This document shows positions 3,789 to 8,120 of a stretch of 64,000 bases of DNA, piece by piece; positions within the stretch are counted from its first letter, which is position 1; every line of letters begins with the position of its first letter. Under the pieces are notes generated by a model that made no database searches, was not told the origin of the DNA, and was given only the letters and a program-made list of their open reading frames with translations. Origin of the DNA: a virus; the UHGV virus genome UHGV-1378516. One strand, written 5' to 3'. The position numbers and the translations under genes are program-made.

Positions 3789-4044
3789 ATTAAATCTTTT
3801 TAGAGAACTTCTAAGAACCTGAGCAACAAGGTTCCACAACAAGCGACTAATAACCTTAGAAGCCCTCTAAAAAGACCTAAATAGGTCTTTGCATAGTCTT
3901 GTTTAATCCGGTGACTAGAACCTTTGGAGAGCTTGATATTATCTCTTCTCCGTGACACCTACTAGGTGCTTTGACAGTGTACGACAATACACGAGGGATA
4001 AACCGACAATGCGAACAAGCATGGACGGAGTAAATCTTATTAGG

Positions 4045-4132
4045 CGGTAAGTAAAGGAGTCGAACCCTCACCGTATCTCTACAGTGGCAACAGTTTTCAA
4101 GACTGTTTGGCTGCCATTAGCCGCTACCTACC
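4045..4132 (-). tRNA. tRNA-Ser (anticodon TGA), type II
   Basis: Acceptor GGTAGGT/ACTTACC, T-loop TTCGACT, anticodon stem ACAGT/ACTGT loop CTTGAAA, long variable arm. Confidence 0.6.
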
Positions 4133-4148
4133 CCTAATAAGACTTTGG

Positions 4149-4228
4149 CATGGGACGGAGGAGTTGAACCCCTTTGAAACGGTTTTGGAGGCCGTTGCTC
4201 ATGCCTTAGAGTCTTAACATCGTCCCAT
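4149..4228 (-). tRNA. tRNA-like gene (80 nt), anticodon undetermined (possible 9-nt loop containing CCA)
   Basis: Perfect acceptor ATGGGAC/GTCCCAT and T-arm AGGGGTTCAACTCCTCC; interior does not fold into canonical D/anticodon arms. Confidence 0.4.
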
Positions 4229-4373
4229 ATTATAATTCGAAGCTTACCCTGTTATCTCAACACTGTCAAGCTTCTTCTCAGATTATTTACATGTTCTGGA
4301 AAACATGAGATACAGACCACCTCCCTACAGGAAGACCCGCTAAGGCCGTCTAAGTAATCTGCTAACTATTTGG

Positions 4374-4447
4374 TACACCCTACAGGATTCGAACCTGTAA
4401 CTAACGATTTAGAAGACCGTTGCTCTATCCAATTGAACTAAGGGTGC
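4374..4447 (-). tRNA. tRNA-Arg (anticodon TCT)
   Basis: Acceptor GCACCCT/AGGGTGT, D-arm GTTCAATTGGATAGAGC, T-loop TTCGAAT, anticodon loop CTTCTAA. Confidence 0.65.
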
Positions 4448-4696
4448 ATTATCTTTAAAGACTCTCTTAGAAAGCCCTTAAAGATGCCCACCTTATTAAT
4501 CATACCGTGGGCGAGTACGCCAAATTCTTTGATGAGGGATTGGAAGACCTCACTGGTGTTTAGCCTATCAAGCTACTGCCAGAAAAACATTGTCGTTTGC
4601 ATTTATTTTAAATTTGCAAAATAGACGCTACGCAACGAAAACTAAGGTTACTATAAAGTAGTCACATCTCAATGTCAACAACTTTATTGAAATTGG

Positions 4697-4769
4697 TACT
4701 GGTAGGTGGAATCGAACCACCGATGTTCCCTTATCAGGGGAGTGTTATAACCTTCTTAACTATACCAGC
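4697..4769 (-). tRNA. tRNA-Ile (anticodon GAT)
   Basis: Acceptor GCTGGTA/TACCAGT, T-arm GGTGGTTCGATTCCACC, anticodon loop CTGATAA. Confidence 0.65.
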
Positions 4770-4773
4770 TTGG

Positions 4774-4847
4774 AGGTTCAGATGGGAATCGAACCCACAT
4801 TCATAGGGCTTATGAGACCCTTGCATTACCTTATCTGCGACTGAACC
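4774..4847 (-). tRNA. tRNA-Met (anticodon CAT; initiator-like GGG/CCC in anticodon stem)
   Basis: Perfect acceptor GGTTCAG/CTGAACC, T-loop TTCGATT, anticodon stem AGGGT/GCCCT loop CTCATAA. Confidence 0.6.
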
Positions 4848-4854
4848 ATATTGG

Positions 4855-4927
4855 TAGAAGTGGAGGGATTCGAACCCATCGCCTGTCAGATTAAAAGTCT
4901 GCCGCATCACCATTCTGCTACACTTCC
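4855..4927 (-). tRNA. tRNA-Lys (anticodon TTT)
   Basis: Acceptor GGAAGTG/CACTTCT, T-loop TTCGAAT, anticodon loop CTTTTAA. Confidence 0.6.
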
Positions 4928-5126
4928 ATTAAATTATCTTTGTAGATAAGCTACCCAGACTTGCTTAAGGTCTGTAGCGATGTGCCTTTTGGGTTTAAAT
5001 CTAGAATTTACCCATTCACCCTTTGTGGTCGCATACTCACAGGTAAGCTTAATAACTTATCTACAAAGATAATTACCAGACCGTTGTTTATCATCTTAAG
5101 TGCTACCATTACACCAACTCGACATC

Positions 5127-5172
5127 TGCCGAGTGAAGGAATCGAACCTTCGCCTTTTCTTTACCGGAGAAA
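5127..5172 (-). pseudogene. tRNA remnant: 3' half (T-arm + acceptor 3' strand) plus an anticodon-arm-like hairpin (loop CCGGTAA), no matching 5' acceptor strand
   Basis: T-arm GAAGGTTCGATTCCTTC present; no complementary 5' acceptor strand within 100 nt. Confidence 0.3.
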
Positions 5173-5358
5173 TAGATTGTTTAAGTTTTGCTGTAAACGG
5201 TCTTCTGTAAATTTGTTGAGCCAGACCAAGTTTTAAATTTTCAAAATTAAATTGGCTTGAAATTTCATACGTTCTTGCTGTATTTGGTCTTCTGCTCCTT
5301 TAAAGAATACTCGTAAGAACTCTTTAAGGGAGGGGCTAAATAGCCCTCTCAAAATTGG

Positions 5359-5433
5359 CGGTTACGAAGGGATTTGAACCCTCATCATCTCCCGTGACAG
5401 GGGAGTATTTTAACCAGATTAAACTACATAACC
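5359..5433 (-). tRNA. tRNA-Asp (anticodon GTC)
   Basis: Acceptor GGTTATG/CGTAACC, T-loop TTCAAAT, anticodon stem CTCCC/GGGAG loop CTGTCAC. Confidence 0.65.
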
Positions 5434-5441
5434 TTTATTGG

Positions 5442-5526
5442 TGTGCCGTGTAGGAGTCGAACCTACCGAGTCTCAATGACAAGGGATTTACAGTCCCCAC
5501 CGCTACCATCTACGGGATAACGACAC
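5442..5526 (-). tRNA. tRNA-Tyr (anticodon GTA), type II
   Basis: Acceptor GTGTCGT/ACGGCAC, T-arm GTAGGTTCGACTCCTAC, anticodon loop CTGTAAA, long variable arm. Confidence 0.6.
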
Positions 5527-5598
5527 ATTTAATTTCTATTCAGGCTAAGGACTTGCACCTTACAAATCGGTGAGCAATCGCTTCTCTCCTAAATTTGG

Positions 5599-5672
5599 CG
5601 GTTAGTCAGGGATTCGAACCCTGTGCCATTCGCTTAACAGGCGACCGCACATACCTTATGTGCTTCCTAACC
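5599..5672 (-). tRNA. tRNA-Asn (anticodon GTT)
   Basis: T-arm CAGGGTTCGAATCCCTG, acceptor GGTTAGG/ACTAACC, anticodon loop CTGTTAA. Confidence 0.6.
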
Positions 5673-5759
5673 ATGTTTAGTATTACCAGACCGTATCTTT
5701 CAATTTTTTCCGCTAAAAATTTAATAAATATTGCTGTAAACGGTCTTCTGTAAATTTGG

Positions 5760-5833
5760 AGGCGGGTGCAGGAGTCGAACCTGCCGATACCATGCTAATG
5801 AGACATGTGAGACGCCCTTTCTCTATACCCGCA
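5760..5833 (-). tRNA. tRNA-Met (anticodon CAT), 1-72 mismatch
   Basis: T-arm GCAGGTTCGACTCCTGC, acceptor TGCGGGT/ACCCGCC, anticodon stem CATGT/GCATG loop CTCATTA. Confidence 0.55.
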
Positions 5834-5927
5834 ATTCTTAATGACCAGACCAAATCTCTTCTTTGTCCGATTTACCTTCAGATGAATAAGATTAAGTTTG
5901 CTGTAATTGGTCTTCTGTCAAAACTGG

Positions 5928-6002
5928 CGTTCCAGAAGGGATTTGAACCCTCAAATATCCACTTTGAAAGAGTGGTGACTTTACCATTTTGTCTACTGGA
6001 AC
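5928..6002 (-). tRNA. tRNA-Glu (anticodon TTC)
   Basis: Perfect acceptor GTTCCAG/CTGGAAC, T-loop TTCAAAT, anticodon stem CCACT/AGTGG loop CTTTCAA. Confidence 0.65.
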
Positions 6003-6012
6003 ATTAATTTGG

Positions 6013-6086
6013 TCTCTGTTGGAGGACTTGAACCTCCGGCCTTACCGCCCCAAACGGAACGCTCTACCAAGCTGAGCTAAACAGAG
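6013..6086 (-). tRNA. tRNA-Pro (anticodon TGG)
   Basis: Perfect acceptor CTCTGTT/AACAGAG, canonical D-arm GCTCAGCTTGGTAGAGC, T-arm GGAGGTTCAAGTCCTCC, anticodon loop TTTGGGG. Confidence 0.65.
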
Positions 6087-6251
6087 ATAAACTTTTCAAA
6101 CTCTATGTAACCACTTTAACATTATTTTTTAGTGGTTGTCAAGAACTTTTTTAAAATATTCTTCAGTATCTTAGAAAAGCTCTCATTTCGTTTCTATGTA
6201 GAACATATTAAAGGGTATTAAACACATTGTCAATACCCTTTTTAAAACTTT

Positions 6252-7667
6252 TTACCAGATGTAACGGTCAATCATTACTGCTTTGAGCATTACGCTGATT
6301 GGGTCAAACTTCTCACCACCAAGCAGAGCTTTTAAAGTGGCTGGAGAGAAACCAGATACCATTGCTACACCGTTATCCTTAACGGACACTTCGCAAGTAC
6401 CATTACGGTTTGCTAAGTACCAGAATACCAGTTGTGGCATCTCATATCCAGCTTTTTTGTACTTGCTCTGAATTGCTTCAAAGTTTGTACGACCGTTAGC
6501 TCCATCAACCTGATTGAACTCCATATCAGAGAATATGATAAGCTTACTTGGCATATCTTTCTGAGTCAAGTTGTTTCTCTTACCTATTTCAAGAATGCGG
6601 TCAAAAGCTGCTTGTAAGTTAGTTGAACCATATTCAACATGACGCATTACCTGACGATGACGGTTTCGTAAATCACCACTCAGTTCGATGAAGTGAGGGT
6701 TTGTTGAATAAACCATCAACTCATTCTTAAAGCAACCTGTATTGCGTTCTGCTACATACAAGGCAAGTGATACACCAATATCAAGGGCGGTGATTGAACC
6801 AAGATTCACCCAAGACATTGAGCTTGAAACATCAGTCATACACAAGATGTTTTCACCTTCTGCCATCCAGTTTGGTAGTGCTTTCCACTGCTCATTGGCA
6901 ACATCTGCATTACCATGCTTGATAGACTTAATCACATCGTATGGGTAAACAGCACCAGCATTAATCTTAGCCTCACCCTTTGATAAGGACTCAATGTAAG
7001 CTTTGTAGCGTTCTCCATCTTTACGGTTAAACAGTTTTTGGTAACGTGCAGCAGCAAGTGAAGGAATCTTACTGTAGTCAATCTTACCAAACTCATTAGC
7101 AGAGATTTTTTGCTCAACTGTATCAGATAGTGCAGACAACAGTGTGCGGTACTCTTTCTCACTCAAGTTGGCAAACTTGCAGAAACGTTTTACAAACTGC
7201 TTATGACGTGGTTTGACTCGTGGTAACCACTTAGCTGCCAAACCTGCTGTTGCAGGGTCTAGTAATGCTGCTTCTAAATGTTTGAAGGCATCTGTCTCGA
7301 AACGAGTACCTACGAAGATTTTGAAGTCATCAAAACGGCCAAGTTCTGCAATCTTATCCATAATACGAAGAACCTGCGTAGACTCTAAAACTTTGTCTTC
7401 AATTGCTTGAAGCAAAACAGTTCTGAAGGCTTTACGCTCACCCATACCTTCTCGTACATCTCGCATATGAAGCAAAATACGAACTGCAACATCAACATCC
7501 TCACGCAAAGCTTTGTAGAACAGGTCTGGTAAGATTTCTACGTTGCTACGGCTTGAACCAGCAGCTTTGTAAAAGTCTACAAGAGCAGACATTGATGAAG
7601 TATGGTTTACAGCACCATTTTCAGTTCGACCTGCATGAAGGTGCGCATGTTTAAATAATTCGCTCAT
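6252..7667 (-). CDS. von Willebrand factor A (vWA) domain protein, DUF2828-like
   Basis: 471-aa ORF; MIDAS-type DxSxS motif (MTDVSSSM) followed by a vWA-like C-terminal region. Confidence 0.5.
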   Translation of the reverse strand: MSELFKHAHLHAGRTENGAVNHTSSMSALVDFYKAAGSSRSNVEILPDLFYKALREDVDVAVRILLHMRDVREGMGERKAFRTVLLQAIEDKVLESTQVLRIMDKIAELGRFDDFKIFVGTRFETDAFKHLEAALLDPATAGLAAKWLPRVKPRHKQFVKRFCKFANLSEKEYRTLLSALSDTVEQKISANEFGKIDYSKIPSLAAARYQKLFNRKDGERYKAYIESLSKGEAKINAGAVYPYDVIKSIKHGNADVANEQWKALPNWMAEGENILCMTDVSSSMSWVNLGSITALDIGVSLALYVAERNTGCFKNELMVYSTNPHFIELSGDLRNRHRQVMRHVEYGSTNLQAAFDRILEIGKRNNLTQKDMPSKLIIFSDMEFNQVDGANGRTNFEAIQSKYKKAGYEMPQLVFWYLANRNGTCEVSVKDNGVAMVSGFSPATLKALLGGEKFDPISVMLKAVMIDRYIW

Positions 7668-7748
7668 ATTTTACTCTCTTCTCTCATTTGTTGTTTGATG
7701 TGACAGACTTTAGAGCAACTTTGTAGAGCCTGTCAACACCTTTTAAAA

Positions 7749-8120
7749 TTATTTTTTAAGCGTTGCTACAGCAGAGAATGTTGGTTTGTTATCTGTCTGA
7801 GACTGACCAACATTATCAGGGGTCTTCTTAGTGTCTGCTGCAATTGCTTTCATCTCACCCGCTGAGTGGGTCATGATAGTTTTACCAGCTTCCATCATCG
7901 ACTTCAGGTTTACATCGTCAGTCGTCAAACCGAACTCTGCAAGCTTAGCAGCGTCCCTTGTAACAATCGCTTCAAACAACTTTGCAGCAAACTCAGCAGA
8001 ATTATCAATGGTCAGTTGAGCTTTTACAAGTGAACTTTTGTTACGAGAGCCTTTTGGTCTTCCAGATGGGTTTCCAGATTGGCCTTTTTTAAACTGGCCT
8101 TTGTTTGTTCTGTTTTTCAT
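7749..8120 (-). CDS. hypothetical protein with N-terminal basic Gly-rich motif (GNPSGRPKG)
   Basis: 123-aa ORF; motif KGQSGNPSGRPKGSRNK common in phage proteins of unknown function. Confidence 0.5.
   Translation of the reverse strand: MKNRTNKGQFKKGQSGNPSGRPKGSRNKSSLVKAQLTIDNSAEFAAKLFEAIVTRDAAKLAEFGLTTDDVNLKSMMEAGKTIMTHSAGEMKAIAADTKKTPDNVGQSQTDNKPTFSAVATLKK

What the first reader, a model, noticed from the sequence alone, without database searches (positions are those of the whole stretch)
5070..5920. Repeated spacer module between tRNA genes: CCAGACC...TTGCTGTAAACGGTCTTCTGTAAA (at least four copies)
Copies at about 5075-5215, 5222-5300, 5680-5760 and 5840-5915 share a left arm (ACCAGACCG-like) and a right arm (TGCTGTAA(A/T)(C/T)GGTCTTCTG) that are partly inverted relative to each other (GACCG / CGGTC). 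They are not tRNAs. They could be precursor-processing hairpins, small stable RNAs like those in other phage tRNA regions, or footprints of tRNA-gene duplication.
Basis: seen in the sequence. Interest (0 to 1): 0.5.

Follow-up and report, generated by a model that had tools for sequence, protein, structure and literature searches.

The report
Y-RNA-like small RNAs between phage tRNAs
The four repeated "spacers" in this Felix O1-like phage tRNA cluster are conserved folded small RNAs that always travel with a neighbouring Ro60-like RNA-binding protein gene, and they share their signature (end-to-end stem plus UUACAGCAA) with the unexplained Class I RNAs of the social amoeba Dictyostelium.

Summary
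There are four copies, all on the minus (tRNA) strand: M1 5073-5210, M2 5218-5297, M3 5683-5753 and M4 5842-5920.

Each copy folds as a 4-bp outer stem, an AGA/G internal loop and a 7-bp inner stem, followed by an invariant single-stranded UUACAGCAA-type motif. Across 10 Felix-like genomes, 297 of 297 stem cells pair, with compensatory and G·U changes that fit only the minus-strand RNA.

M1 also carries a tRNA-like domain (V hairpin, T arm, closed acceptor-like hairpin, D arm), as in bacterial YrlA Y RNAs.

The gene just upstream (6252-7667, DUF2828/DUF7788) is predicted to have the Ro60 ring fold.

Covariance models find the same RNA beside DUF2828 genes in distant phages and metagenome-assembled genomes. 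All 103 hits lie on the gene strand, against about 1 per Mb in control DNA. Twelve of 36 such loci have no tRNAs.

Best reading: these are Y-RNA-like partner RNAs of the phage Ro60-like protein, released by tRNA processing. No expression or binding data exist.

Unexpectedly, the signature also matches Dictyostelium Class I RNAs. One simple descriptor hits 24 of 34 of them. I could not test whether Dictyostelium has the matching protein.

The parts
5073..5210 (-). M1, the long form (138 nt). Closing bulged stem: outer UUAC 5210-5207 / GUAA 5076-5073; AGA 5206-5204; G 5077; inner stem 5203-5197 / 5084-5078. UUACAGCAA motif at 5196-5188. tRNA-like domain: V hairpin 5156-5172, T arm 5135-5151, closed acceptor-like hairpin 5117-5134, D arm 5100-5114.
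   Evidence: Fold. Six-genome alignment with 97.5% of cells paired; the acceptor-like helix is 100% paired with 3 compensatory pairs; T and D arms are invariant. CM hits of 55.3 bits (R2) and 33.4 bits (R3, built without Felix-like sequences). Partial tRNA hit of 22 bits.
5218..5297 (-). M2, a short form. Outer stem GAGC/GCUC, AGA/G loop, inner stem AGACCAA/UUGGUCU, then AUACAGCAA. It lies 7 nt upstream of M1 on the RNA.
   Evidence: 81.1 bits; 31.7 bits.
5683..5753 (-). M3, a short form between tRNA-Met and tRNA-Asn. It starts 3 nt after the CCA end of tRNA-Met and ends 10 nt before tRNA-Asn. Outer stem UUAC/GUAA, inner stem AGACCGU/ACGGUCU, then UUACAGCAA. The interior holds a hairpin with a 7-nt loop.
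   Evidence: 78.5 bits; 46.5 bits. Rfam Dicty_Class_I_RNA gives 20.5 bits.
5842..5920 (-). M4, a short form between tRNA-Glu and tRNA-Met. It starts 4 nt after the CCA end of tRNA-Glu and ends 8 nt before tRNA-Met. Outer stem UGAC/GUCA, inner stem AGACCAA/UUGGUCU, then UUACAGCAA.
   Evidence: 77.9 bits; 37.5 bits. Rfam Dicty_Class_I_RNA gives 19.7 bits.
6252..7667 (-). Gene for a 471-aa Ro60-like protein (Pfam DUF2828 + DUF7788/vWA; PHROG 850 'RNA-binding protein'). This is the proposed protein partner of the modules.
   Evidence: Pfam; PHROG. AlphaFold model with pLDDT 86.6. The top 9 Foldseek PDB hits are all Ro60/TROVE over the full length (E 1e-8 to 7e-7, TM 0.47-0.65 normalised to the query). 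The homologue Bas63 gp130 is described as Ro60-like and as countering the Ppl defence (PMC11482910).
6205..6233 (-). Sigma-70-like promoter (TTGACA-17-TAATAT), between the Ro60-like gene and the tRNA/module array.
   Evidence: This is a consensus match only.
6113..6142 (-). Second sigma-70-like promoter (TTGACA-18-TAAAGT, with TG), upstream of tRNA-Pro.
   Evidence: This is a consensus match only.
5356..6086 (-). The tRNA genes interleaved with the modules, in transcript order: Pro 6010-6086, Glu 5925-6002, [M4], Met 5757-5833, [M3], Asn 5596-5672, Tyr 5439-5526, Asp 5356-5433, [M2][M1].
   Evidence: ARAGORN.

Best explanation
The four modules are genes for small structured RNAs. Three are short forms of about 70-80 nt. 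One is a 138-nt long form with a tRNA-like domain. They belong to a widespread RNA family that accompanies genes for DUF2828-type Ro60-like proteins.

Shown here:
- The repeats exist.
- The bulged closing stem is conserved by compensatory changes on the tRNA-sense strand.
- An invariant unpaired UUACAGCAA-type motif follows the 5' strand of the stem.
- M1 has a YrlA-like order of V, T, closed-acceptor and D elements.
- The adjacent gene product is predicted to have the Ro60 fold.
- Across more than 150 distant loci, the RNA lies on the gene's strand, in arrays of 1 to about 5, usually within about 400 nt of the gene.

Inferred:
- The modules are transcribed with the tRNAs from the two sigma-70-like promoters just downstream of the Ro60-like gene.
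- They are cut out by the enzymes that trim the neighbouring tRNAs (RNase P and 3' processing), because they lie only 3-10 nt from tRNA ends.
- The stem plus motif is the docking site for the Ro60-like ring, as the bulged helix of Y RNAs is for Ro60.
- The variable interior, or the tRNA-like domain of M1, tethers or gates another factor such as an exoribonuclease or a tRNA-binding enzyme.
- The particle acts in RNA surveillance or counter-defence during infection.
For: Repeat significance: 4 hits against 0 expected.

Structure in Felix-like genomes: 27 distinct short modules from 10 genomes give 297/297 paired cells. Five of 11 pairs show changes on both sides. Slid controls pair at 21-46%. 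All single changes are G·U on the minus-strand RNA.

Structure in distant phages: 48 distinct members are 96% paired, and all 11 pairs show compensatory changes.

M1: the acceptor-like helix changes completely between genera (ACUCGGC/GUCGAGU, ACCCUUC/GAAGGGU, ACACGUU/GGCGUGU) yet stays 100% paired. The T and D arms are invariant. This matches the published description of YrlA (PMC4201824).

Protein: predicted Ro60 fold. It is homologous to mycobacteriophage 'Ro-like RNA binding protein'.

Linkage to the gene:
- R2 gives 54 hits at E<=1 in 873 kb of distant viral DUF2828 loci. All are on the gene strand, in 36 loci, and 41 of 54 lie within about 415 nt of the gene.
- R2 gives 49 of 49 hits on the gene strand in 507 kb of genome-collection loci.
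- In 925 kb of control viral DNA there is one weak hit, besides one Felix-like fragment.
- 12 of 36 hit loci have no tRNA.
- Model R3, built only from non-Felix hits, finds exactly the four window modules (E 9e-10 to 7e-6).

Rfam YrlA hits long forms in related loci, below its threshold: L008 42.1, L063 43.5, L204 39.8 and L032 39.2 bits.
Against: - No expression, processing or binding data exist for these RNAs in any Felix-like phage.
- The protein matches Pfam DUF2828/DUF7788, not TROVE. Its profile hits Ro60 by sequence only at E=0.92.
- The published bacterial Ro60-binding motif GNCGAA(N0-1)G / CGAA is absent from all four modules.
- Rfam YrlA does not detect M1 even at E<=10.
- Only 36 of 75 distant viral loci gave a hit at E<=1.
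- R2 and R3 derive from Felix-seeded searches, and the alignments made by the models lean towards the model structure.
- Promoters are consensus matches only.
Confidence: 0.7

Rival explanations
1. The hairpins are processing signals for the polycistronic tRNA precursor, for example RNase III/E entry sites or spacers that help RNase P and 3' trimming. They have no life of their own.
For: They lie 3-10 nt from tRNA ends inside a tRNA array. DUF2828 genes usually sit next to same-strand tRNA arrays: 24 of 36 hit loci have tRNAs, and 296 of 299 tRNAs are on the gene strand.
Against: The same RNA is found next to DUF2828 genes in 12 loci with no tRNA within about 6 kb, including mycobacteriophage LeBron. 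Most of the 26 tRNAs in the window have no such spacer. An invariant unpaired 9-nt motif and a tRNA-like domain are not needed for a cleavage hairpin. The stems (4+7 bp) are short for RNase III.
Confidence: 0.07
2. They are decaying remnants of duplicated tRNA genes, that is pseudogenes without function.
For: M1 contains a perfect T arm and D arm, and Rfam's tRNA model gives a partial 22-bit hit. The short forms are tRNA-sized with a 7-bp stem and an anticodon-arm-like hairpin.
Against: Every stem pair is maintained through compensatory and wobble changes across three genera and in far more distant phages. The T-AS-D order with a closed acceptor recurs independently in distant loci. The conserved arms are not tRNA sequence. 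A tRNA origin is possible, but decay is not.
Confidence: 0.03
3. They are cis-acting regulatory elements of the Ro60-like gene, such as autoregulatory protein-binding sites or attenuators in its leader or trailer, rather than free RNAs.
For: They lie on the gene strand, directly upstream or downstream of the gene in most loci.
Against: In the window they are separated from the gene by two strong promoter-like sites and two to six tRNA genes. In L063 and L008 promoter-like sequences stand between the array and the gene or precede the array. They come in arrays of up to about 5, on either side of the gene. The long forms mimic tRNA.
Confidence: 0.08
4. They are real small RNAs that work without the Ro60-like protein. 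They could be tRNA-like decoys for host anticodon nucleases or other defence proteins, or could bind a different partner. The gene linkage would then reflect a shared RNA-centred module.
For: Phage tRNA regions are linked to defence evasion, and Bas63 gp130 counters Ppl. The canonical Ro60-binding motif is absent. In Dictyostelium the look-alike Class I RNA binds an RRM protein directly.
Against: Linkage to the DUF2828 gene is very tight in strand and distance, over 30-50% protein identity and with or without tRNAs. That is the pattern seen for Y RNAs and Ro60 (PMC4201824).
Confidence: 0.1
5. They are DNA-level elements: recombination or homing-endonuclease sites, miniature mobile elements or single-strand DNA hairpins.
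For: They are inverted repeats in a region where homing endonuclease genes are inserted in some relatives.
Against: Single substitutions in the stems are G·U on one strand only and would be A·C mismatches on the other. All 103 CM hits and all 105 descriptor hits are on one strand. Positions are syntenic in all Felix-like genomes examined. There are no further copies elsewhere in the 64-kb window.
Confidence: 0.02

Closest known systems
Bacterial and phage Y RNAs of the YrlA/YrlB type (Rfam RF02553; Chen et al. 2014, PMC4201824), and Yrl1/Yrl2 of Thermus phage phiLo (PMC12135203)
   Same: They are encoded next to a Ro60-type ring protein, often several per locus. The 5' and 3' ends form a bulged closing stem next to a short conserved unpaired motif. 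One member per locus (here M1) carries a tRNA-like domain in the order V, T arm, closed acceptor-like stem-loop, D arm, with T and D conserved and the acceptor-like stem covarying. Long forms in related DUF2828 loci, including mycobacteriophage LeBron, are hit by Rfam YrlA at 39-44 bits.
   Different: The partner is a DUF2828/DUF7788 protein, not a Pfam TROVE protein. The conserved motif is UUACAGCAA rather than GNCGAA(N0-1)G / CGAA. M1 is not detected by the Rfam YrlA model. The genes are interleaved with tRNA genes, so release would be by tRNA processing. Binding is untested.
Class I RNAs of Dictyostelia (Rfam RF01414; Kjellin et al. 2021, PMC7919456)
   Same: Shared features: a short covarying stem joining the 5' and 3' ends; a conserved G at the base pairing with the C of a 3' CUG(U); the motif (C)CUUACAGCAA immediately after the 5' strand of the stem; a G-poor, A/U-rich variable interior; about 60 nt in length; 30-40% G+C; many paralogues.

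The Rfam model built from Dictyostelium sequences hits M3 (20.5 bits), M4 (19.7) and M1 (12.8), plus six modules in relatives (24.7-28.8 bits). Every hit lies inside a module array, and eight of the nine coincide with a hit of my own models.

One simple descriptor detects 24 of 34 curated D. discoideum Class I RNAs, all four window modules and 105 gene-strand sites in DUF2828 loci. It detects nothing on the opposite strand and nothing in 1 Mb of control DNA.
   Different: No phage module reaches the Rfam gathering score of 41.5. The spacing between stem and motif is one nucleotide shorter. The Felix-like copies add an outer stem and an AGA/G loop. The promoters are bacterial rather than the DUSE element. 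Long tRNA-like forms are not described in Dictyostelium. Class I RNAs are reported as unique to Dictyostelia and as binding an RRM protein (Rnp1A). Whether Dictyostelium has a DUF2828 protein was not testable here.
Small stable RNAs in the phage T4 tRNA gene cluster (species 1 and 2; from my own knowledge, not checked here)
   Same: Non-tRNA small RNAs encoded within a phage tRNA cluster, co-transcribed with the tRNAs and excised with them.
   Different: No sequence or structural relationship was tested. T4 is not known to me to pair them with a Ro60-like protein.

Membership tests
Y RNA / YrlA (Rfam RF02553) | Encoded adjacent to a Ro60 (TROVE + vWA ring) gene | tested here: met
   The gene at 6252-7667 lies 166 nt upstream of the array. 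Its predicted structure matches Ro60 chains over the full length. By sequence, however, it is DUF2828/DUF7788 and not Pfam TROVE.
Y RNA / YrlA (Rfam RF02553) | The 5' and 3' ends pair into a bulged closing helix | tested here: met
   4-bp + 7-bp stems with an AGA/G loop. 100% of cells pair in Felix-like genomes and 96% in distant loci.
Y RNA / YrlA (Rfam RF02553) | Conserved Ro60-contact motif GNCGAA(N0-1)G (bacteria) or GGUCCGA (animals) on the 5' strand | tested here: not met
   Reading the four modules shows no such motif. UUACAGCAA occupies the equivalent place.
Y RNA / YrlA (Rfam RF02553) | tRNA-like domain: V loop, conserved T arm, variable closed 'acceptor' stem-loop, conserved D arm | tested here: met
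   Met for M1 only. M2-M4 lack the domain and resemble the shorter YrlB class.
Y RNA / YrlA (Rfam RF02553) | Reaches the Rfam gathering score (69 bits) | tested here: not met
   No YrlA hit on M1 even at E<=10. Related long forms score 39-44 bits.
Y RNA / YrlA (Rfam RF02553) | Physically bound by the Ro60 protein; stable RNA in vivo | not testable with these tools
   No expression or binding data were found for Felix-like phages.
Dictyostelium Class I RNA (Rfam RF01414) | Short terminal stem joining the 5' and 3' ends, with structure but not sequence conserved | tested here: met
Dictyostelium Class I RNA (Rfam RF01414) | 11-nt motif CCUUACAGCAA next to the 5' strand of the stem (near-invariant U3, C6, C9, A10, A11) | tested here: met
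   UUACAGCAA/AUACAGCAA is present in all four modules. In 48 distant members CAGCAA is 45-48/48 at each position and the preceding U is 46/48. The spacing to the stem is 1 nt shorter than in D. discoideum.
Dictyostelium Class I RNA (Rfam RF01414) | Invariant 5' G pairing with the C of a conserved 3' CUGU | tested here: met
   The G-C pair is 47/48, followed by U (35/48, which pairs with the base 5' of that G) and then G (42/48) in distant members. The window modules read ...GGUCU-G-G.
Dictyostelium Class I RNA (Rfam RF01414) | Reaches the Rfam gathering score (41.5 bits) | tested here: not met
   Window: 20.5, 19.7 and 12.8 bits. Relatives reach at most 28.8 bits. There was no hit at gathering threshold in 20 further loci.
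Dictyostelium Class I RNA (Rfam RF01414) | DUSE promoter about 60 nt upstream; found in Dictyostelia | tested here: not met
   This is a phage genome with sigma-70-like promoters.
tRNA | Complete cloverleaf with an open acceptor end, recognised by ARAGORN or the Rfam tRNA model (29 bits) | tested here: not met
   ARAGORN calls none of the modules. The Rfam tRNA model gives 22 bits on part of M1 only.
Ro60 / TROVE protein family (for the neighbouring gene) | HEAT-repeat ring plus vWA/MIDAS domain | tested here: met
   Met at the level of fold. The top 9 Foldseek PDB hits are Ro60/TROVE entries. Met only faintly by sequence, with E=0.92 to 1yvp. There is no Pfam TROVE hit.

The most novel reading that the evidence does not exclude
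The phage modules and the Class I RNAs of dictyostelid amoebae would be the same kind of RNA: the dedicated partner of DUF2828-type Ro60-like proteins. This protein family is also present in giant viruses of protists and is mentioned in plant studies.

If so, Class I RNAs are not unique to Dictyostelia. They would be Y-RNA-like. Their unidentified partner might be a Dictyostelium DUF2828 protein; a candidate to check is DDB_G0281243, the pull-down protein of unknown function.
Probability: 0.45. Interest if true: 0.9.

Novelty: new variant of a known kind. Interest (0 to 1): 0.72.

Why it matters
First, it names concrete RNA partners for the Ro60-like protein of Felix O1-like phages. Its Bas63 homologue is needed against the Ppl defence system. 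The authors of that study only guessed that "some tRNA genes" might be Y RNAs. The candidates identified here lie between the tRNA genes.

Second, it defines a distinct and very widespread RNA signature: a terminal stem with a G-C base, UUACAGCAA, and a 3' CUG. This signature marks DUF2828-type Ro60-like genes in phages of many bacterial phyla. It is absent from Rfam and from the papers I could search.

Third, the same signature defines the abundant, developmentally regulated Class I RNAs of Dictyostelium. Their mechanism has been open since 2004, and they are described as restricted to that group. A shared protein partner would make that question directly testable. It would also extend the Ro60/Y-RNA principle to a second protein clade spanning phages, giant viruses and eukaryotes.

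Tried and rejected
- Known RNA families. Rfam scans of the region at E<=1 and E<=10 gave no ribozyme, riboswitch, Y RNA or YrlA match to the modules. I had considered hammerhead-like or other self-cleaving motifs and a kink-turn reading of the AGA bulge; nothing supports them.
- Permuted tRNA gene. M1 reads 3' half, then 4 nt, then 5' half, with perfectly complementary acceptor strands. I rejected this in favour of the YrlA-type closed acceptor. The same order recurs in distant loci, and the place of the anticodon stem is taken by the family's closing stem.
- Exact-pattern scan of viral contigs with CAGAAGACCNNNNNCAGCAA. This returned mostly chance single matches. I reused them as control DNA.
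- Sequence-only comparison (nhmmer) of a phage-module HMM against Dictyostelium Class I RNAs. Scores were 9 bits or less on a tiny database, which is uninformative.
- Dictyostelium protein link. I could not test whether DDB_G0281243, or any Dictyostelium protein, is DUF2828. The AlphaFold-database library was unavailable. Avesson et al. 2011 is not held. The proteome file in the supplement is truncated and contains no family motif. Literature searches for DUF2828 and UCP015417 gave nothing relevant.
- Expression data for Felix-like phages. None found.
- PDB sequence search with the protein alone. Nothing useful.
- NCBIfam. No hit.
Full report
**Context.** The window is from a Felix O1-like phage (Felixounavirus). 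Positions 4000-8000 are 98% identical to Felixounavirus AN17P8, and 324 phage records match. ARAGORN finds 26 tRNA genes between 875 and 6086, all on the minus strand. The finding lies at the promoter-proximal end of this array.

**Observation.** The right arm TGCTGTAAACGGTCTTCTG occurs four times with up to 3 mismatches, against none in 100 shuffles. The left arm ACCAGACC (GCCAGACC in copy 2) precedes each one, and the repeat finder recovers the family. The 871-nt region is held at 80% coverage or more by 236 phage records.

**Anatomy.** All four copies, read as minus-strand RNA, fold the same way:
- a 4-bp outer stem;
- an internal loop with AGA on the 5' side and a single G on the 3' side;
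- a 7-bp inner stem (AGACCGU/ACGGUCU or AGACCAA/UUGGUCU);
- then an unpaired (U/A)UACAGCAA.

Stem-to-stem coordinates are M1 5073-5210, M2 5218-5297, M3 5683-5753 and M4 5842-5920.

The interiors of M2-M4 differ in sequence. Each has a small hairpin, often 5 bp with a 7-nt loop, and an A-rich 3' segment.

M1 is longer. Between the arms it holds a V hairpin (5156-5172), a canonical T arm GAAGG-UUCGAUU-CCUUC (5135-5151), a hairpin ACUCGGC-AGAU-GUCGAGU (5117-5134) and a D arm GUGU-AAUGGUA-GCAC (5100-5114). This is a tRNA body whose acceptor end is closed by a loop and whose anticodon stem is replaced by the module's closing stem. Rfam's tRNA model sees only part of it (22 bits), and ARAGORN calls nothing.

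**Selection on structure.** I extracted the modules from ten Felix-like genomes: the window, seven IMG/VR contigs including Moogle, SUSP2 and Sf16.
- In 27 distinct short modules, all 297 stem cells are standard pairs. Five of 11 pairs show changes on both sides, for example UUAC/GUAA to UUGC/GCAA within orthologous M3. Slid controls pair at only 21-46%.
- Every one-sided change is a G·U on the minus-strand RNA. It would be an A·C mismatch on the other strand. The functional molecule is therefore RNA of the tRNA sense.
- In M1 the closed acceptor-like helix is rewritten between genera (ACUCGGC/GUCGAGU, ACCCUUC/GAAGGGU, ACACGUU/GGCGUGU). It stays 100% paired, while the T and D arms never change.
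- This is what Chen et al. describe for YrlA Y RNAs: conserved T and D stem-loops, a variable stem-loop between them in the acceptor position, and a V loop upstream (PMC4201824).

**The neighbouring gene.** The ORF at 6252-7667 on the minus strand encodes 471 aa. It matches Pfam DUF2828 and DUF7788 with a weak VWA_2 hit, and PHROG 850 'RNA-binding protein'.
- An AlphaFold model built on 40 homologues has mean pLDDT 86.6.
- Its nine best Foldseek matches in the PDB are all Ro60/TROVE proteins over the full length: Thermus phage phiLo, Xenopus, human and Deinococcus (E 1e-8 to 7e-7).
- By sequence the link to Ro60 is faint (E=0.92).
- The family includes the mycobacteriophage 'Ro-like RNA binding protein'.
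- The Bas63 homologue gp130 was reported as Ro60-like and as required against the Ppl defence. Those authors only conjectured that some of the downstream 'tRNA genes' might be Y RNAs (PMC11482910).
- Two strong sigma-70-like promoters lie between this gene and tRNA-Pro.

**Family-wide linkage.** A covariance model of the Felix-like short modules (R1) was searched against 74 loci around distant DUF2828 genes (40-53% protein identity). It gave 33 hits, all on the gene strand and mostly beside the gene.

The refined model R2 gave these results:

| Sequence searched | Size | Hits at E<=1 | On gene strand |
|---|---|---|---|
| Distant viral DUF2828 loci (75 loci) | 873 kb | 54, in 36 loci | 54 |
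| Genome-collection DUF2828 loci, many phyla | 507 kb | 49 | 49 |
| Unrelated viral DNA (control) | 925 kb | 1 weak hit, plus 4 in a Felix-like fragment | n/a |

- Of the 54 viral hits, 41 lie within about 415 nt of the gene's start or end.
- Each control stretch had been pre-selected to contain the 5'-arm pattern, so the control is conservative.
- In the 48 distinct distant members the stems are 96% paired, and all 11 pairs show compensatory changes.
- The consensus is A-G-N5-N-U-W-CAGCAA ... N5'-C-U-G.
- Model R3, built only from these non-Felix hits, finds exactly the four window modules (46.5, 37.5, 33.4 and 31.7 bits). The next best hit scores 17.7 bits.
- Twelve of the 36 hit loci have no tRNA within about 6 kb. 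Mycobacteriophage LeBron shows three modules directly after its Ro-like gene. The RNA therefore follows the protein gene, not the tRNAs.
- Distant loci carry arrays that mix short and long forms. L008 has five (three short, two with T/AS/D arms) and L063 has four.
- The Rfam YrlA model hits long forms there below threshold, at 39-44 bits.

**Interpretation.** The best-supported reading is that the modules are Y-RNA-like partner RNAs of the phage Ro60-like protein.

What is shown:
- the conserved RNA structure and its strand;
- the invariant unpaired motif;
- the YrlA-like domain of M1;
- the predicted Ro60 fold of the neighbouring gene product;
- the tight linkage between RNA and gene across the family.

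What is inferred:
- co-transcription with the tRNAs from the promoters at 6233 and 6142;
- excision by the tRNA-processing enzymes, since the modules start 3-4 nt after a tRNA CCA end and end 8-10 nt before the next tRNA;
- docking of the Ro60-like ring on the stem plus UUACAGCAA;
- a tethering or gating role, by analogy with Ro60-Y RNA-PNPase complexes (PMC4201824; PMC12135203).

Against membership in the YrlA family proper: the GNCGAA/CGAA motif is absent, M1 gets no Rfam YrlA hit, and the protein is not a Pfam TROVE protein. I therefore file this as a new variant, not as a member.

**An unexpected resemblance.** The only Rfam family that repeatedly touched the modules is RF01414, the Class I RNA of Dictyostelium.
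- Scores are M3 20.5, M4 19.7 and M1 12.8 bits in the window. In relatives they are L077 27.5, L008 25.0 and 24.9, L033 28.8, L064 26.4 and L035 24.7 bits.
- None reaches the gathering score (41.5), and none is significant alone.
- All nine lie inside module arrays on the gene strand. Eight coincide with hits of my own models. The ninth (L035 5802-5860) sits directly upstream of a model hit. The Rfam model was built from amoeba sequences only.
- Kjellin et al. define Class I RNAs by a roughly 6-bp covarying stem joining the ends, an invariant 5' G pairing with the C of a 3' CUGU, an 11-nt motif next to the 5' strand of the stem, about 60 nt length and 32-41% G+C. They report them as unique to Dictyostelia, with unknown mechanism (PMC7919456).
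- The curated D. discoideum sequences read, for example, GUUGAC-CUUACAGCAA-...-GUCAAC-UG. The phage consensus is GGAUUG-UUACAGCAA-...-CAAUCC-UG.

I wrote one descriptor: G-N5, then 0-2 nt, then U[A/U]CAGCAA, then 15-130 nt, then the complementary N5-C, then UG. Its results:

| Sequence set | Hits |
|---|---|
| Curated D. discoideum Class I RNAs | 24 of 34 |
| Window modules | 4 of 4 |
| DUF2828 loci, gene strand (1.49 Mb) | 105 |
| DUF2828 loci, opposite strand | 0 |
| Control viral DNA, both strands (1.02 Mb) | 0 |

The descriptor was written after I had seen both data sets, so it measures resemblance rather than serving as a blind test.

Proteins with the DUF2828 fold also occur in giant viruses of protists: Pithovirus (TM 0.87), CroV, Marseillevirus and mimivirids. 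The domain is also mentioned in plant studies.

A Class I RNA pull-down recovered four proteins: Rnp1A, GuaB, NdkC and DDB_G0281243, which has unknown function (bioRxiv 10.1101/2020.04.05.026054). I could not determine whether any Dictyostelium protein is DUF2828. The cross-kingdom reading therefore stays a hypothesis. I put it at about 45%.

**Rivals.** Processing hairpins, decayed tRNAs, cis-regulatory elements of the gene, partner-independent decoy RNAs and DNA-level elements are each weighed in the rival list. The tRNA-free loci, the strand-specific wobble pairs, the invariant unpaired motif and the syntenic positions argue against all but the decoy and cis-regulatory options. Those two remain minor possibilities.

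**Verdict.** The finding is real and is not ordinary spacer DNA. It is a new variant of the Ro60/Y-RNA theme: a distinct protein clade, a distinct RNA motif and genes punctuated by tRNAs. The documented resemblance to Dictyostelium Class I RNAs could make an old question testable. No expression or binding evidence exists yet.

Noticed in passing
window 4930-5076 (minus strand): A structured element of about 145 nt lies directly after M1 and before tRNA-Lys. Its closing stem has 22-nt arms that are 95% complementary and encloses several hairpins (MFE -49.2 kcal/mol, z = -6.15). The long stem differs between Felix-like and Moogle/SUSP2/Sf16 genomes but stays paired (GUAGAUAAG.../...CUUAUCUAC versus GCAGUGAC.../...GUUACUGC). 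One inner hairpin loop carries UUAAGCAA or UUUAGCAA. It may be another small RNA or an RNase III site.
   Followed up: partly
window 4152-4226 (minus strand): A tRNA-like sequence that ARAGORN does not call. Rfam scores it 23 bits with the tRNA-Sec model. By eye the anticodon loop reads CUCCAAA (CCA, Trp). Some related records annotate 'tRNA-OTHER' or pseudo-tRNAs in this region.
   Followed up: no
window 5757-5833 (minus strand): ARAGORN calls the tRNA-Met(CAU) between M4 and M3. It does not appear among the Rfam tRNA hits; the only match is tRNA-Sec at 15.9 bits, E=5.3. It seems to be an atypical tRNA.
   Followed up: no
window 3790-3880: An inverted repeat with 26-nt arms (85% complementary, 39 nt apart) just after tRNA-Leu(UAG). 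It overlaps a weak chance-level Rfam MIR473 hit.
   Followed up: no
L081 (Escherichia phage SUSP2, KT454806.2) 6368-6538: An annotated 'hypothetical protein' CDS (ALH47156.1) overlaps module M3 (L081 6407-6479). It is probably a mis-annotation of the RNA gene.
   Followed up: partly
Distant DUF2828 loci L008-L080, L083, L204: DUF2828 genes very often sit beside large tRNA arrays on the same strand. Of 299 tRNAs in these loci, 296 are on the gene strand, with up to 26 per 13-kb locus. The Ro60-like gene, the Y-like RNAs and the tRNAs appear to form one RNA-centred block.
   Followed up: partly
L235 1007-1068 (MAG contig labelled Micavibrio sp.): The orphan Rfam motif 'freshwater-1 RNA' (RF02979, 82.7 bits, above its threshold) lies within the array of modules and tRNAs just upstream of a DUF2828 gene.
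   Followed up: no
L032 11696-11922; L063 12103-12310: Group I intron matches (71.5 bits, above threshold, in L032; 36.7 bits in L063) a few kb downstream of the DUF2828 gene in two distant phage contigs.
   Followed up: no
window 7749-8120 (minus strand): A 123-aa DUF5681 protein (PHROG 4114, unknown function) is encoded directly upstream of the Ro60-like gene. The same pair of genes is annotated in Felix-like, SUSP2, Sf16 and Yersinia phage P778 records.
   Followed up: no
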